Source: a virus
Lineage: Duplodnaviria; Caudoviricetes
Virus record (IMG/VR): IMGVR_UViG_2895532408_000002
Span: 11,952-75,951 of that record
Direction: 5' to 3' (one strand)
DNA: 64,000 nucleotides
The position numbers were made by a program, and so were the translations under genes. A model generated the notes under the pieces. That model did no database searches. It was not told the origin of the DNA and worked only from the letters and a program-made list of their open reading frames with translations. Positions 12,367-16,062 of the stretch are shown in pieces (within the stretch, counting starts at the first letter, position 1; the number at the start of each line of letters is the position of its first letter).

Positions 12367-13541
12367 TACAGGTCCTCACGAATACGGGAATTAGTGATAT
12401 GACAGGGTTTACCTTCTTTGGTGTATCCAAATGAGAATACGGTGAGTTTCTTACCAATATTCTTATGACCGTTTACAGCATGATCGTGTTTCTCATTCGC
12501 ATCCCCAGGCGCCGTAACATCAAACGTTTTACCGTCCTCCGTTTGGCAGACATAAATACCGACCTCGGTACCTAGGCGCTTATTAGGTTTACCCTTACGG
12601 ATACCAATAATTTCAAACTCGGCGTCTTGTTCGTCTTTTCTCTTCATCAGCGATGAGCTGCGCTTATCCGTTTCGTAAGAGGCATTCCCTTGGCGAACCA
12701 TCGTGCCTTCATAGCCGTTAGAGGTCCAAGCCTCGTGGTACTTGTCAATACCAGCTTGATCCATAACTTTGTAACACGCCGTTAGACACAGGGTAGGGTA
12801 AGAGCTTTCGGTTATACGAGAGTCCAAGTAATCAAATCTATCAGCGTAAGGAAGACCAAGAACAACATCATAAATATTGTACGACAGGTATTTACTGTCT
12901 TCTTGTGGCTTCTTGATAAGACTCGAAATATTTTCAAAGGCTTTACCATGGCAGTAAAGCTCACCATCCAACGTTGTGCCATCCCAAATACCTGTATCGT
13001 AAAGGAACTGTAAGCGTTCCATGATGTGAACAACCGTAATTGGCTTACCACCTCTTGAATAAAGAAATACCTTTTCATCTTGTACGGTTGCAAGGCAGCG
13101 GTGGCCATCCATCTTAGGTTGAACAAAAACAGGGAATTCCCAATCTTTTACCTTATCAATCGGCTGGGCCAACATGGGTTTTACCAACCCAAGGGCATTT
13201 GTTACCGCGGCACCTTCTTCGGGTTGCTCTTCAACATAACCTTTATCGAGCTGTTTTTTTACTTTACTTTGTGCTTCAAAAACAGCTTGCATAAGTGGCG
13301 TGGTTTCGTTGCTGCGGCCAAGGTTCTTGCCTTCGGTGTAATCCGTTAGGGTTTCAACGCCCTTACCACCTATAACCTTGCAAGAGGTGACAAGCGTGCT
13401 GGCAGTCCCATCCGCATTAAGGGTAGTTTTGATATGCCAAGAGCCCACCTTTCCGCCCGAGTGGACTTTAAAGAGTGTTTGTTCAAAGCGAACGTCGGCA
13501 TCTAAAGGAGTGGTGCTAGAAGTATTAGCGGGAATATTCAT
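12366..13541 (-). CDS. ATP-dependent DNA ligase
   Basis: KMDGHR adenylation motif, LDGELY, GYEGTMVR, KRK; start after GGAAATTGACGAT. Confidence 0.93.
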   Translation of the reverse strand: MNIPANTSSTTPLDADVRFEQTLFKVHSGGKVGSWHIKTTLNADGTASTLVTSCKVIGGKGVETLTDYTEGKNLGRSNETTPLMQAVFEAQSKVKKQLDKGYVEEQPEEGAAVTNALGLVKPMLAQPIDKVKDWEFPVFVQPKMDGHRCLATVQDEKVFLYSRGGKPITVVHIMERLQFLYDTGIWDGTTLDGELYCHGKAFENISSLIKKPQEDSKYLSYNIYDVVLGLPYADRFDYLDSRITESSYPTLCLTACYKVMDQAGIDKYHEAWTSNGYEGTMVRQGNASYETDKRSSSLMKRKDEQDAEFEIIGIRKGKPNKRLGTEVGIYVCQTEDGKTFDVTAPGDANEKHDHAVNGHKNIGKKLTVFSFGYTKEGKPCHITNSRIREDL

Positions 13542-13586
13542 ATCGTCAATTTCCAAATTTTAAAGTTAAGCCCGTAGGCAGAGTTA

Positions 13587-13615
13587 AAACTACGCTTTCA
13601 ACTTTTGTATATCAA
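13587..13615 (-). promoter_or_regulatory. Sigma70-like promoter TTGATA-17-TAGTTT for the ligase/replication operon
   Basis: Hexamers and 17-bp spacer read from sequence. Confidence 0.55.
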
Positions 13616-13642
13616 GTCAAAAACGAAGCTACATTATAAAAA

Positions 13643-13657
13643 CACAATTAGATTGTG
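13643..13657. promoter_or_regulatory. Putative operator CACAATTAGATTGTG (CACA-N7-TGTG family)
   Basis: Dyad; related copies at 30407, 33681, 33737, 53767. Confidence 0.65.
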
Positions 13658-13772
13658 CTTTTAATATTTATTAAAAAAATCTACTTTCTTTAATTTATTT
13701 AATTGTTTAGAATTTATACGTCTTTATTTTGTAGTAAAAGATTTACACTATGGCCCTGATGGAGTATTCGCC

Positions 13773-14093
13773 GTGTCGAAAAAAATTGACGATAACTTAG
13801 AACCACCTTGGGAGCTAGAGAGGCGTCGTCTCATAGCTCGTAAATTTAAAACTATGCGTCAGAATTACCGTCTGACTCAAGAAGAACTAGCTATTGCTGC
13901 CGACGTTCACAAGAACACAATCTCAAATGCTGAACGTTACGGCAAAATTTCATCTGAAGAATTCTATAAATACCAGCAAATTGCGAAGCGTGCTCACATG
14001 AAAAAGGGTCTCGGTTCTGTTGTGAGTAAGATTACGCTATCCGACATACCATTCTCAGATTTTAAACGCTTTCTAGCGACCTTTTGGGAGTAA
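13773..14093 (+). CDS. XRE-family HTH transcriptional regulator
   Basis: RQNYRLTQEELAIAADVHKNTISNAERYG; GGAG RBS; divergent from replication operon. Confidence 0.88.
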   Translation: MSKKIDDNLEPPWELERRRLIARKFKTMRQNYRLTQEELAIAADVHKNTISNAERYGKISSEEFYKYQQIAKRAHMKKGLGSVVSKITLSDIPFSDFKRFLATFWE

Positions 14094-14095
14094 TC

Positions 14096-14854
14096 ATGTA
14101 CCGTCACTTCTTTACTCGATATGGGGGTAGATTCACACTATTCCTTACGTCTTTGCTAATTTTTACTTCTGTGTTAAACCGCTTTCTTGTTGAGGGACAG
14201 TGGGAATTGAAATCCTTATCTGACTTACTCAGTTATTACGCCGTTATGTTTTCGTGTATCATTATAGCTGGCGTAATGGTTCGTGGTTTTAACAACCGTA
14301 TTGTTTTGGCCTTGATAATCATTGCGTCTATTTCAGAGCAAATAATCTCTAGCCTAATGTTTTCTATAAGTCCCACACTGCATACGGCTATTGCTATGAC
14401 GTATGTGCCAGGGATTATCACCATGTTTTTGTATCAATATCGGGTACAGTTCCAGTTTTGGTTGGCAAACAAACTGATCCAATCTGAACGGTTTAGAAAT
14501 AAAGGATTGTACTTATTAGATAAAACCGAAGACACCAATCTAGGAACAGCGATAAACATCATTAATAAATTAGGCTGGGTCGTCTGCTTTAGTATTGCGA
14601 CGTACTATCATATCTTTACGATTCATTTTGGAATTCATGAGACTGGCCCATTACTATATGGCTATCGTCTTGTAGATATCGAGTATGCTTTACACCTACC
14701 AAGCTTCTACTTTTTGTTTAATATCGTGTTCGTTACTCAGACAATTATGCTTCTAGGTTTACTCTTCCATGCCAGTATTCAGGAGTTCTATGTTAAGGAC
14801 CTCGCTGGGTCGATACCTAAGAAACTTGAGGTACTATTTAAAAGAGCGGCTTAG
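14096..14854 (+). CDS. Polytopic inner-membrane protein (~6 TM)
   Basis: Several long hydrophobic stretches; coupled to the XRE gene. Confidence 0.8.
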   Translation: MYRHFFTRYGGRFTLFLTSLLIFTSVLNRFLVEGQWELKSLSDLLSYYAVMFSCIIIAGVMVRGFNNRIVLALIIIASISEQIISSLMFSISPTLHTAIAMTYVPGIITMFLYQYRVQFQFWLANKLIQSERFRNKGLYLLDKTEDTNLGTAINIINKLGWVVCFSIATYYHIFTIHFGIHETGPLLYGYRLVDIEYALHLPSFYFLFNIVFVTQTIMLLGLLFHASIQEFYVKDLAGSIPKKLEVLFKRAA

Positions 14855-14864
14855 CCGCTCTTTT
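14840..14864. terminator. Bidirectional intrinsic terminator AAAAGAGCGGC-TTA-GCCGCTCTTTT
   Basis: Perfect stem with A/T tracts between convergent genes. Confidence 0.85.
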
Positions 14865-14869
14865 CTTTT

Positions 14870-15022
14870 TTAGAAACCGACTGTTGGCTTCTTAGGCTTA
14901 AGCGACTTTGTTTTAGGGTTGTCCGCGGGCTTAGGCACAACTACGTTACTCTCAACATCAGCCATAGCCATTGTTGAACCCATACCAAGTACTAGCGCGA
15001 TTGCGAATCCTAATTTCTTCAT
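14870..15022 (-). CDS. 50-aa secreted peptide precursor MKKLGFAIALVLGMGSTMAMA|DVESNVVVPKPADNPKTKSLKPKKPTVGF
   Basis: Hand-translated; GGAG RBS; Sec-type signal peptide (KK, hydrophobic core, A-M-A cleavage site). Confidence 0.8.
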   Translation of the reverse strand: MKKLGFAIALVLGMGSTMAMADVESNVVVPKPADNPKTKSLKPKKPTVGF

Positions 15023-15127
15023 TGTGTTTCTCCATAAGAGGTTTAGTTGTTTTCTATGGAGTCAATTGCAATGCCTGTGCCTAAACGAAAGTCTAAGGTT
15101 TCAGGCTATAAGGAGTGATATACGAGG

Positions 15128-15158
15128 CGAAATGTTGCCATAGACCGGCAACATTTCG
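15128..15158. terminator. Hairpin CGAAATGTTGCC-ATAGACC-GGCAACATTTCG at the end of the early operon
   Basis: 12-bp perfect stem after stop at 15165; U-tract weak. Confidence 0.6.
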
Positions 15159-15164
15159 ATATCA

Positions 15165-16003
15165 CTATAGCAGTATTGGTAGTTCTGTTGCCAGTTCGCG
15201 ACGTTTCAACAGCGGGACTTGGTTTTTTATCCAAGCTTTAATTTTTTCAATTCGACTCTCCGCCCGACTTTCTTTGTGTCTAGCTACAATGGCCAAAGCC
15301 TCAGATAACGCCCAACCTTCACCGTTAGGGCCAATATACCCCCAGCAAGATTCATCAATATCGTGACCTTCAATAACGTAACCATAGGCGTCACCCTCTA
15401 GATATGCCGCATATGTTTTTACTTCGCTGTCTAAGAATTCGTAGACCTTTTGAACACGTTCTTTTGTGAATCGATTAAAACCATACTCTTTACGGGCTTT
15501 ATCTTTGCTAACGTAGATAAAACCGACTTGGCCAGAATCCCAAGAGCACGAGAAACCACCCTATTCATCGTAATACCTGAATGGTCGTATAAGTAAAGCG
15601 GCAGGATAAAGTAGTATTTCTCAAGTCTTGCTGCAATCTTCGCCTCAACCAATTCTTGGTACGACTTCGTACCTTGAGCATCCCAACTTGTTGAAGGCCA
15701 GTTATGTTCGAATCTTTCCAACATAGCTTCAAACCCTGGCTCAACGGCCTCAACCATCCCAATACGATAGTCGTCGTAGCTTACTGAAGGTTGTTCATCC
15801 CCTAAGTTATATCTCCTATGCCAGCAGACCATTGTGCCTACGTTGTCCCACTCTCGAGGGCTTTCTATATCTCCATCCCGCTCAATCTTAATAGTGATAT
15901 CTTTTATCTGTGTCTCAGACTCACCAATCAAATCAAGGGCCTCAAAAGCTATTCCCAACTTCTGGCAGTTTGTTTTCAGTTGTTTTGTTAATTCAGGGTG
16001 CAT
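15165..16003 (-). pseudogene. Hypothetical protein (LYDHSG...WDSGQVG...SCWG) broken by a 1-nt frameshift near 15560
   Basis: After YDHSGITMNR the coding continues in another frame as GGFSCSWDSGQVGFIY...LPILL to stop 15165. Confidence 0.8.
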
Positions 16004-16062
16004 CGTCAATCTCCAACAAGTTAATTACAAAGGGGGGAGAACATTCCCCCCCTTTTTAAGGT

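What the first reader, a model, noticed from the sequence alone, without database searches (positions are those of the whole stretch)
13773..15060. XRE regulator + polytopic membrane protein + convergent secreted 50-aa peptide: possible phage signalling cassette
SEEN: the only plus-strand operon in the left arm (XRE HTH, ~6-TM protein) meets, across a bidirectional terminator, a gene missed by the ORF track. It has a GGAG RBS, a Sec signal ending AMA, and a 29-aa Pro/Lys-rich mature peptide ending TVGF. None of the three genes carries the sRNA target motif. KNOWN: arbitrium (AimP/AimR) uses a secreted peptide in Bacillus phages but with a cytoplasmic TPR receptor, which is not present here. 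INFERENCE: the peptide is sensed by the membrane protein, which modulates the XRE protein and thus the lysis/lysogeny decision in a Gram-negative host. Superinfection exclusion or a toxin-antitoxin module are alternatives.
Basis: partly seen in the sequence, partly recalled or inferred. Interest (0 to 1): 0.78.

Follow-up and report, generated by a model that had tools for sequence, protein, structure and literature searches.

The report
Phage repressor with membrane-protein/peptide add-on
A temperate marine phage carries, right behind its likely dormancy regulator, an optional pair of unknown genes (a six-helix membrane protein and a small exported peptide switched on by a host-dependent promoter); all three genes are real, but a sister phage keeps the regulator without the pair, so this is an add-on and not a proven phage signalling system.

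Summary
The anatomy is real. It holds an XRE-type HTH gene (13773-14093 +) and an orphan 6-TM protein gene (14096-14854 +). A bidirectional terminator follows (14840-14864), then a convergent 50-aa Sec-signal peptide gene (14870-15022 -).

One detail is wrong. The XRE gene does carry an exact 11-nt copy of the phage's gene-start tag, inside codons 4-7.

The peptide gene is coding. Its mature part shows 13-15.5 synonymous against 2-3 non-synonymous differences.

The peptide gene has its own sigma-54 promoter (15067-15081). That is the only exact GGCAC-N5-TTGCA in 64 kb, and all 5 distinct relatives keep it. The phage record encodes no sigma-54 activator.

The three genes form two units. Two sister records keep the XRE gene in the same slot but lack both the membrane protein and the peptide. 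The pair is present or absent together.

The membrane protein matches no family and no solved fold. Only 5 representatives turned up among 1.84 billion proteins.

Best reading: a prophage regulator plus an accessory envelope cassette, arranged like lambda cI-rex. Its function is untested. An SdpC/SdpI/SdpR-like relay to the regulator is not excluded. An arbitrium-like system is not supported.

This scan found and followed up the same cassette before on three other genomes, with concordant verdicts.

The parts
13557..13772 (.). Divergent regulatory region between the ligase gene start (-) and the XRE start (+). It is AT-rich and holds the perfect dyad CACAATTAGATTGTG at 13643-13657.
   Evidence: The sequence is. 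It is more conserved than the flanking coding DNA in 5 relatives. The simple sigma-70 scan found no + strand promoter here.
13773..14093 (+). XRE-type helix-turn-helix regulator, 106 aa. It is conserved in the same slot in all relatives and is the likely prophage-expressed repressor.
   Evidence: Searches give sub-threshold HTH hits, all at residues about 21-66. pN/pS is 0.05. Relatives are 68-95% identical. It is the only HTH family hit among the 67 further phage proteins scanned.
13783..13793 (+). Exact copy of the phage's gene-start tag AAATTGACGAT, inside XRE codons 4-7.
   Evidence: It is a 12-nt perfect inverted partner of the copy at the ligase start, 13541-13552 (pair I2). The close relatives keep it.
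14096..14854 (+). Orphan inner-membrane protein, 252 aa, six transmembrane helices, N and C termini predicted cytoplasmic. Its ATG lies 2 nt after the XRE stop, with GGGAG inside the end of the XRE gene.
   Evidence: No Pfam, PHROG, PADLOC or NCBIfam hit. pN/pS is 0.15. Conserved motifs GFNN, EKTEDTN and QExYVKDLxGxxP persist down to 30% identity.
14840..14864 (.). Bidirectional hairpin terminator between the convergent genes.
14870..15022 (-). Gene for a 50-aa precursor. The Sec signal peptide is residues 1-21 (14960-15022). The mature 29-aa Lys/Pro-rich peptide is 14873-14959. The C-terminal SLKPKKPTVGF is invariant.
15030..15033 (-). GGAG ribosome-binding site, 7 nt before the ATG.
15067..15081 (-). 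Sigma-54 (-24/-12) promoter GGCACAGGCATTGCA, 45 nt upstream of the peptide ATG.
   Evidence: It is the only exact GGCAC-N5-TTGCA in the window. There is one copy in every locus that holds the cassette and none in L018/L019. The two elements are invariant while the 5-nt spacer varies.
15129..15157 (.). Palindrome GAAATGTTGCC-N7-GGCAACATTTC, directly after the stop of the upstream 288-aa-type gene and about 50 nt upstream of the -24 element. It is either an activator-binding site or a hairpin without a U-tract.
   Evidence: The arms are invariant and the loop varies in 5 relatives. The window has an 11-bp deletion between the palindrome and the promoter.

Best explanation
The stretch holds two units, not one three-part device.

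Unit 1 is a small XRE-type DNA-binding protein. It is transcribed against the flow of the leftward early/replication operon of a temperate siphophage whose host is probably Alteromonas. It keeps this slot in every relative. It is the only recognisable HTH regulator found in the phage, so it is most likely the regulator made in the lysogen, that is, the repressor or immunity protein (inferred).

Unit 2 is a cassette of about 1.07 kb (about 14094-15165) inserted between the XRE stop and the end of the next gene. It holds four things:
- an orphan six-helix inner-membrane protein, whose start is 2 nt after the XRE stop, so it is made whenever XRE is made (shown: gene layout; inferred: co-expression);
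- a bidirectional terminator;
- a convergent gene for a Sec-exported 29-residue basic peptide;
- that gene's own sigma-54 promoter, with an upstream palindrome.

The phage encodes no sigma-54 activator. Peptide production should therefore depend on a host enhancer-binding protein, and so on a host physiological signal (inferred).

The pair travels together and is dispensable for the phage. That fits a lysogenic-conversion (moron-type) module placed in the immunity operon, as rexAB is behind cI in lambda.

Most likely mechanism (inferred, untested): in the lysogen the membrane protein sits in the inner membrane with an acidic periplasmic face. The basic peptide, released into the periplasm when the host activator fires, acts on or with it. 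Together they change the envelope, most plausibly to exclude superinfecting phage. They may also feed information back to the prophage.
For: - Temperate phage: an integrase (phrog_1, 5e-60) and an excisionase lie at the left end of the 75,951-bp provirus record. The integrase is in 4 of 4 related records that are at least 90% complete, two of which have direct terminal repeats.
- XRE as core: it occupies the same slot in the window, in 5 distinct close relatives and in 2 sister records at 68% identity, where the flanking ligase is 83% identical.
- XRE as the only HTH: no other HTH family hit among 36 + 31 further phage proteins.
- Cassette as accessory: the membrane protein is found in 3 of 5 related virus records and the peptide in the same 3 of 5. 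Both are absent from G001 (94% complete) and G002 (81% complete). Homology to the sister breaks at 14083 and resumes at 15186.
- Indirect linkage: the three proteins share the same longest-contig lengths in 5 further cases (128418, 194254, 187918, 84076, 3817).
- All three genes are under purifying selection: pN/pS is 0.05 for XRE, 0.15 for the membrane protein and 0.05 for the peptide.
- Peptide C-terminus: the last 11 residues are invariant in 20 of 20 variants seen.
- Sigma-54 promoter. No PF00158 activator in the record.
- Canonical GGAG sites precede all three genes, instead of the phage's own start tag before the start codon.
- Topology and charge complementarity.
- Precedent: lambda RexB is a 4-TM inner-membrane protein. 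The passages read report that it interacts with CI in a two-hybrid test (bioRxiv 10.1101/2021.04.19.439022, passages).
Against: - No function is shown for any of the three proteins.
- The HTH hits are below the curated cut-offs, and the AF2 model of XRE was poor (pLDDT 54).
- XRE lies mid-operon, far from the integrase and from the point where the two arms diverge. It has no cleavage domain. The repressor role is therefore inferred only.
- The CACAATT-N4-TGTG dyads near it are enriched in the window and in G004, but not in sister G001, whose HTH helices are identical. Its operator is unknown.
- The exclusion role rests on analogy alone. The membrane protein matches no PADLOC model and no known exclusion protein.
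- The 5 close relatives are nearly identical to each other, so the substitution counts amount to one or two independent comparisons.
- The contexts of the three distant membrane-protein homologues (30-39% identity) could not be fetched.
- The sigma-54 start site and the activator are predicted, not observed. No RNA run was listed.
Confidence: 0.55

Rival explanations
1. Signal relay to the regulator. It would work like SdpC-SdpI-SdpR of Bacillus subtilis, or like the proposed RexB-CI contact in lambda. The periplasmic peptide binds the six-helix protein. That protein's conserved cytoplasmic loop and tail then capture or release the XRE protein, which shifts the lysis/lysogeny balance.
For: - The layout matches sdpRI facing sdpC: a regulator gene followed by a 6-TM gene in one operon, convergent with a secreted-peptide gene (PMC2910880, passages).
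- The best-conserved parts of the membrane protein are cytoplasmic: GFNN, EKTEDTN and QExYVKDLxGxxP.
- The periplasmic loops are acidic and the peptide is basic.
- The peptide and the membrane protein are always together.
- The passages read report that RexB interacts with CI in a two-hybrid test.
Against: - XRE works in sister phages without either partner, and it has the same length and the same C-terminal region there. No partner-specific domain is visible.
- The membrane protein does not match the SdpI Pfam family, and XRE is not an ArsR-type protein.
- No binding test could be run.
Confidence: 0.18
2. Toxin and immunity pair. The exported peptide harms cells that lack the prophage, or the host under some condition, and the membrane protein protects the lysogen.
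For: - The two genes are strictly coupled.
- The immunity-like gene sits in the operon expected to be on in the lysogen, while the peptide is separately regulated.
- A small cationic peptide paired with a polytopic protein is the usual layout of peptide-bacteriocin immunity (recalled).
Against: - Sec export leaves the peptide in the producer's periplasm, and no exporter or outer-membrane route is encoded nearby.
- The peptide has no amphipathic or hydrophobic stretch of the kind typical of membrane-active peptides (sequence).
- No family match.
Confidence: 0.1
3. Two independent cargo genes that merely share an insertion. Each would have an unrelated role in the host envelope. For example, the peptide could be a periplasmic decoy for a host PDZ protease or for the TonB system.
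For: - They have separate promoters and opposite strands.
- The peptide's invariant free C-terminus ends in Phe, and its N-terminal ESNVVV stretch loosely recalls outer-membrane-protein tails and TonB boxes. This resemblance is recalled and not tested.
Against: - Both genes are gained or lost as one block in every record seen.
- The peptide types track the membrane-protein clades, although common descent alone would also give this.
Confidence: 0.1
4. Arbitrium-like communication between cells. The peptide would leave the cell, build up with phage or lysogen density, and be sensed by neighbours.
For: - A secreted peptide gene lies beside a phage regulator in a temperate phage.
Against: - There is no TPR receptor, and XRE is only 106 aa.
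- There is no processing or re-import logic.
- The 29-aa peptide lies behind an outer membrane.
- The sigma-54 promoter implies control by host state.
- The cassette is dispensable.
Confidence: 0.03

Closest known systems
Lambda immunity operon cI-rexA-rexB, and prophage morons in general
   Same: - A repressor-type gene is followed in the same operon by a polytopic inner-membrane protein with both termini in the cytoplasm.
- The extra genes are dispensable for the phage and are expected to be made in the lysogen.
- In lambda, RexB is reported to interact with CI and to affect the switch (bioRxiv 10.1101/2021.04.19.439022, passages; PMC11077077, abstract start only).
   Different: - There is no sequence or family relation to RexB or RexA.
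- This protein has six helices, not four.
- The partner is an exported peptide with a sigma-54 promoter, not a cytoplasmic DNA-binding protein.
- The exclusion phenotype is untested.
SdpC / SdpI / SdpR of Bacillus subtilis (cannibalism toxin, immunity-signal protein, autorepressor)
   Same: - A regulator gene and a six-helix membrane-protein gene form one operon, convergent with a gene for a Sec-exported peptide.
- In that system the peptide binds the membrane protein outside the cell and the membrane protein sequesters the repressor inside (PMC2910880, passages).
   Different: - The host here is Gram-negative, so the peptide stays in the periplasm.
- The regulator is XRE-type, not ArsR-type.
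- The membrane protein does not match the SdpI family.
- The regulator occurs without the pair in sister phages.
- Binding is untested.
Arbitrium (AimR-AimP-AimX) of Bacillus phages
   Same: - A temperate phage carries a secreted-peptide gene next to a regulator.
   Different: - There is no TPR receptor, no short processed hexapeptide logic, and no aimX-like target.
- The peptide gene is under sigma-54, that is, under host control.
- The cassette is optional.
Pseudoalteromonas phage KB12-38 and Achromobacter phage JWF-type siphophages of about 80 kb (closest named phages)
   Same: - The large terminase is 50% (KB12-38) and 46% (JWF) identical over 93-100% of its length.
- Genome size is similar.
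   Different: - None of the 50,697 phage records has a relative of the membrane protein or DNA similar to the cassette.

Membership tests
XRE-family helix-turn-helix regulators (Pfam HTH_3 / HTH_31) | The HTH domain is recognised by the family model at or above its curated cut-off. | tested here: inconclusive
   HTH_3 scores 21.9 bits against a cut-off of 23, and HTH_31 scores 22.3 against 27, both at E about 2e-4 over residues 22-66. PHROG, PADLOC, NCBIfam and PDB give hits at the same residues. Relatives at 89% and 68% identity carry precomputed PF13560 and PF01381. The AF2 model was too poor to use.
Prophage lysogeny repressor (CI-like) | It is expressed in the lysogen and binds operators at the lytic promoters. 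| not testable with these tools
   The case is circumstantial: opposite strand, conserved slot, and the only HTH found. The operator is not identified, because the dyads are not shared with sister G001.
Arbitrium (AimR/AimP) | A cytoplasmic TPR-type peptide receptor fused to an HTH. | tested here: not met
   The regulator is 106 aa with no TPR hit. No further HTH or TPR family appeared among the 67 other proteins scanned.
SdpI immunity/signal family | Sequence membership in the SdpI family. | tested here: not met
   The membrane protein and two distant homologues have no Pfam family at E <= 0.1 and no NCBIfam family.
SdpI immunity/signal family | A regulator plus 6-TM operon that is convergent with a secreted-peptide gene. 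| tested here: met
   compared with PMC2910880.
SdpI immunity/signal family | The peptide binds the membrane protein, and the membrane protein sequesters the regulator. | not testable with these tools
Lambda Rex-type repressor-linked exclusion module | The membrane-protein gene lies in the same operon as the repressor gene and is dispensable for the phage. | tested here: met
   There is a 2-nt gap, the strand is shared, and there is no terminator before 14840. The gene is absent from 2 of 5 related virus records.
Lambda Rex-type repressor-linked exclusion module | Homology to RexB or RexA, or to any catalogued defence protein. | tested here: not met
   No PHROG, Pfam or PADLOC hit.
Sigma-54-dependent promoter | -24 GG and -12 GC elements with the TGGCAC-N5-TTGCW consensus (consensus recalled), in the right place and orientation. 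| tested here: met
   GGCACAGGCATTGCA lies at 15067-15081 (-), 45 nt before the ATG, and is the only exact match in 64 kb. Both elements are kept in 5 of 5 distinct relatives while the spacer changes.
Sigma-54-dependent promoter | An enhancer-binding activator and its upstream binding site. | tested here: inconclusive
   The phage record has no PF00158 protein, and the host genome is not in hand. The palindrome at 15129-15157 has conserved arms, and an 11-bp indel changes its distance to the promoter by about one helical turn. It could equally be an RNA hairpin.
Sec (type I) signal peptide | A basic n-region, a hydrophobic core, small residues at -3 and -1, and no lipobox Cys. | tested here: met
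   MKK / LGFAIALVLGMG / STMAMA|D, with no Cys. This was read by rule, because no predictor was available. Two rare variants change -1 or -2 (P0065, P0067).

The most novel reading that the evidence does not exclude
This would be a Gram-negative phage counterpart of SdpC-SdpI-SdpR, gated by the host. A host enhancer-binding protein that senses a physiological state fires the sigma-54 promoter. The 29-residue peptide enters the periplasm and binds the acidic outer face of the six-helix protein. That protein's conserved cytoplasmic loop and tail then change their hold on the XRE repressor. The XRE mRNA also carries the phage's gene-start tag, so it may in addition be under the phage's small-RNA control. 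Host state would thus be wired into prophage maintenance through a periplasmic peptide.
Probability: 0.13. Interest if true: 0.85.

Novelty: new variant of a known kind. Interest (0 to 1): 0.5.

Why it matters
Accessory genes placed in a prophage's immunity operon are where phages keep defence and host-manipulation functions.

This one pairs a membrane-protein family with no known relatives with a real, strongly conserved exported mini-peptide. The family has 5 representatives among 1.84 billion proteins and none in 185,579 species genomes. The peptide gene is wired to the host's sigma-54 machinery.

The phage group is common in marine data. One peptide variant is on record from 453 contigs, and a close XRE relative is named from Alteromonas macleodii.

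If the pair excludes other phages, it is a new exclusion system in an abundant marine copiotroph. If it talks to the repressor, it would be the first peptide-to-membrane-to-repressor relay described in a Gram-negative phage. The library searches turned up no paper on it.

Either way it is a compact, testable three-gene unit.

Tried and rejected
- Known families for the membrane protein: no hit in Pfam, PHROGs, PADLOC or NCBIfam.
- Fold search with the AF2 model (pLDDT 72): Foldseek against the PDB gave no match at E <= 0.001, with the best at 0.62. VIA-align wide gave a best Z of 7.7 on designed or unrelated helical bundles, which is within the stated background for helical models.
- ESM Atlas: the best score was 0.88, to unnamed clusters, which is a lead only.
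- Other collections: the named phage collection gave nothing by DNA or by protein. Plasmids gave nothing. P0008 against phages gave nothing. GTDB species genomes gave 0 confirmed relatives in two scans.
- Contexts of the distant homologues P0008, P0010 and P0011 were not obtained.
- XRE structure: the AF2 model had pLDDT 54. It was not used for a fold search.
- Expression: no RNA holder was listed for the stretch.
- Operator hunt: the CACAATT-N4-TGTG dyads could not be tied to XRE. One search used a mis-spaced pattern and is void.
- Toxin-antitoxin reading of XRE plus the membrane protein: rejected as the main reading, because XRE stands alone in the sister phages. The antitoxin-family hits are generic HTH matches far below their cut-offs.
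- Literature: searches found no paper on this cassette or on sigma-54-driven phage peptides. Only listings were seen for these searches. Supplementary files were not consulted.
- Rows dropped: P0061 (identical to the window's peptide), P0065 and P0067 (rare cleavage-site variants) were left out of alignment A5 but were read. P0007 (a chimeric 264-aa protein) and P0009 (an 84-aa fragment) were left out of A1 and A2.
Full report
**What the window is.** The window is bases 11952-75951 of a 75,951-bp IMG/VR record classed as a provirus and estimated 94% complete. The left end of the record encodes a tyrosine integrase (phrog_1, E 5e-60) and an excisionase (phrog_2917, 4e-16). Genes on the minus strand run from about 36.9 kb leftwards through replication and accessory functions: primase/helicase, methylases, ligase, family-A polymerase, RdgC and RadC. 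The structural arm runs rightwards. The closest named phage by large terminase is Pseudoalteromonas phage KB12-38 at 50% identity, followed by Achromobacter JWF-type siphophages of about 80 kb. A member of the XRE protein's 90% cluster is named from Alteromonas macleodii. One membrane-protein relative sits in a 194-kb contig labelled Tenacibaculum sp. KUL113. I take Alteromonas as the probable host group, without proof.

**Check of the observation.**
- XRE is 106 aa with a GTG start and a GGAG 8 nt upstream. The HTH is seen by every library at residues about 21-66, but always below the curated thresholds.
- The membrane gene starts at ATG 14096, two bases after the XRE stop, with GGGAG inside the XRE 3' end. 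Its product is 252 aa with six hydrophobic helices. There are 16 Lys+Arg on the predicted cytoplasmic segments against 2 outside. Both termini should therefore be cytoplasmic. The periplasmic loops 31-44 and 178-203 are acidic.
- The hairpin at 14840-14864 folds equally well on both strands.
- The peptide precursor has a textbook Sec leader (MKK, a 12 hydrophobic residues, STMAMA|DV). The mature part is 29 residues with 6 Lys and 5 Pro.
- One statement is wrong. The phage's gene-start tag AAATTGACGAT, which has 27 exact copies in the window against 0.03 expected, occurs at 13783-13793 inside XRE codons 4-7. That copy is the perfect mirror of the copy at the divergent ligase start.
- The peptide gene is called in public data. 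An identical protein comes from a 128,418-bp NCBI contig.

**Are the genes real?** I compared the window with five distinct relatives: three IMG/VR records and two further metagenome contigs. All five are close to one another, so this amounts to one or two independent comparisons. Nei-Gojobori counts gave the following pN/pS values:

| Gene | pN/pS |
|---|---|
| Ligase | 0.07-0.10 |
| XRE | 0.05 |
| Membrane protein | 0.15 |
| Peptide | 0.04-0.06 |

In the mature part of the peptide there are 13-15.5 synonymous against 2-3 non-synonymous differences. That settles that it is translated. Across the 20 distinct peptide variants I saw, the last 11 residues SLKPKKPTVGF never change. The middle ([AST]D[NTK][PASN]K[TI][KE]) and positions 22-29 vary. 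The signal-peptide half of the gene, together with 15023-15255, is almost invariant even at synonymous sites (1-2 changes over 14.7 sites), while the mature half is near saturation. That block is therefore constrained as DNA or RNA, or it is a recent recombination tract.

**The peptide has its own sigma-54 promoter.** GGCACAGGCATTGCA lies at 15067-15081 on the peptide's strand, 45 nt before the ATG. It is the only exact GGCAC-N5-TTGCA in 64 kb. About 0.1 exact copies are expected for ten fixed bases on both strands by my arithmetic. With one mismatch allowed the pattern is not enriched (2 found, 3.1 expected). Every locus that holds the cassette has exactly one copy, and loci without the cassette have none. 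In the relatives the -24 and -12 elements are unchanged while the spacer changes from AGGCA to ATGCT or AGGCT. That is the signature of a functional bipartite promoter. About 50 nt upstream lies an 11-bp-arm palindrome (15129-15157), with invariant arms and a variable loop. The window differs from its relatives by an 11-bp deletion between palindrome and promoter, about one helical turn. The palindrome follows the stop of the upstream gene and has no U-tract. It may be an activator site or an RNA hairpin, and I cannot tell which. The 76-kb record has no sigma-54 activator domain, so a host activator is implied.

**Linkage.**
- The membrane-protein family is tiny. There are 7 clusters among 5.8 billion (one the window's own, one a chimera). 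There are 5 representatives among 1.84 billion, three of them at 39%, 30% and 30% identity. None was found in 185,579 species genomes, in named phages or in plasmids.
- Five IMG/VR records hold an XRE relative. Three carry the whole trio. Two (G001, 94% complete; G002, 81% complete) carry XRE at 68% identity in the same slot, with the ligase 83% identical. In those two, the XRE stop lies two bases from the stop of the convergent 281-aa gene, and there is no membrane protein or peptide anywhere in the records.
- Homology between the window and the sister phage breaks at 14083 and resumes at 15186. The cassette is therefore a 1.07-kb indel that brings the membrane gene, the terminator, the peptide gene, the promoter and the palindrome together.
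- By matching longest-contig lengths, the three proteins also coincide in five further contigs. These cover the 73-77% membrane-protein clades. This evidence is indirect.
- The peptide types follow the membrane-protein clades, as common descent predicts.

**What it most likely is.** XRE is the conserved element and the only HTH-family hit among 67 further proteins of the phage (ORFs under about 60 aa were not scanned). It is the only credible plus-strand gene in the left arm. In a temperate phage that makes it the best candidate for the regulator made in the lysogen. The membrane protein is translationally adjacent to it, so it should be made with it. The peptide is separately switched by the host.

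This is the layout of a repressor-linked accessory module, as in lambda cI-rexA-rexB. There, RexB is a polytopic inner-membrane protein with cytoplasmic termini. It is reported to interact with CI, and its authors suspect that it senses cell state (bioRxiv 10.1101/2021.04.19.439022, passages). I commit to an accessory envelope module of the lysogen, most plausibly exclusion, in which the peptide is the periplasmic partner of the membrane protein. My confidence is 0.55 for the architecture and the accessory status, and much less for exclusion itself.

**Rivals.**
The layout copies sdpRI facing sdpC (PMC2910880, passages). The best-conserved motifs of the membrane protein are cytoplasmic. Against it, XRE needs no partner in the sister phages and has no extra domain where the pair is present.
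- Toxin and immunity pair: 0.10.
- Unrelated cargo genes: 0.10.
- Arbitrium-like cell-to-cell signalling: 0.03.

**Limits.**
- There are no expression data, because no RNA holder was listed.
- There was no binding prediction.
- There is no usable XRE model.
- The distant homologues have no fetched context.
- The operator of XRE is not identified. The CACAATT-N4-TGTG dyads are enriched in the window and in G004 but not in sister G001, whose HTH is identical.
- The rules for the signal peptide, the sigma-54 consensus and the TonB-box and PDZ-ligand resemblances are recalled, not computed.

**Earlier work in this scan.** Three follow-ups on other genomes reached the same core verdict. The genes are real, the pair is an add-on, a sister phage lacks it, there is a sigma-54 promoter, and SdpCIR or cI-rex is the closest analogue. 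I reproduced the sister-phage and promoter claims on this window. I did not test the claim that the cassette is transcribed in the sea. What is new here:
- the start-tag copy inside XRE;
- the one-turn indel between palindrome and promoter;
- the nucleotide-level conservation block;
- the frameshift in the neighbouring gene.

Noticed in passing
window 13783-13793 (+) and 13541-13552 (-): The XRE gene carries an exact copy of the phage-wide gene-start tag AAATTGACGAT inside codons 4-7. It mirrors the copy at the divergent ligase start (a 12-nt perfect inverted pair). If a phage small RNA masks this tag, as another follow-up proposes, the XRE mRNA could be a target too. The sister phage's XRE (L018) has a different N-terminus and lacks the copy.
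   Followed up: partly
window 15165-16009 (-), break near 15556-15562: The gene next to the cassette is 288 aa in close relatives and 281 aa in the sister phage. In the window it is frameshifted next to a G-run. The ORF stops after 192 aa and the rest reads on in another frame. This could be prophage decay or a homopolymer sequencing error.
   Followed up: partly
window 14960-15255: This is a block of about 300 bp: the signal-peptide half of the peptide gene, its 5' UTR, the sigma-54 promoter, the palindrome and the 3' end of the next gene. It is nearly invariant at nucleotide level, while the flanking coding DNA has pS of about 0.45-0.75. It is either a regulatory DNA/RNA constraint or a recombination tract.
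   Followed up: partly
window 13643, 30407, 33681, 33737, 53767; G004; G001: CACAATT-N4-TGTG dyads lie in intergenic regions. There are 10 matches to CACAA-N5-TTGTG with up to 1 mismatch, against 2.3 expected. Close relative G004 keeps them (8 hits against 0 in the control). Sister G001 does not (2 hits against 3 in the control), although its XRE HTH helices are identical. The protein that binds them is therefore unclear.
   Followed up: partly
L018 5330-5340 (sister phage G001): Where the cassette is absent, the XRE stop and the stop of the convergent 281-aa gene are 2 bp apart with no terminator between them. Transcription of the regulator and of the early operon must then collide head-on.
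   Followed up: no
P0007: A 264-aa database protein joins the first 147 residues or so of the membrane protein to an SMC/ABC-type C-terminus. It comes from a 2.5-kb contig and is most likely an assembly chimera.
   Followed up: no
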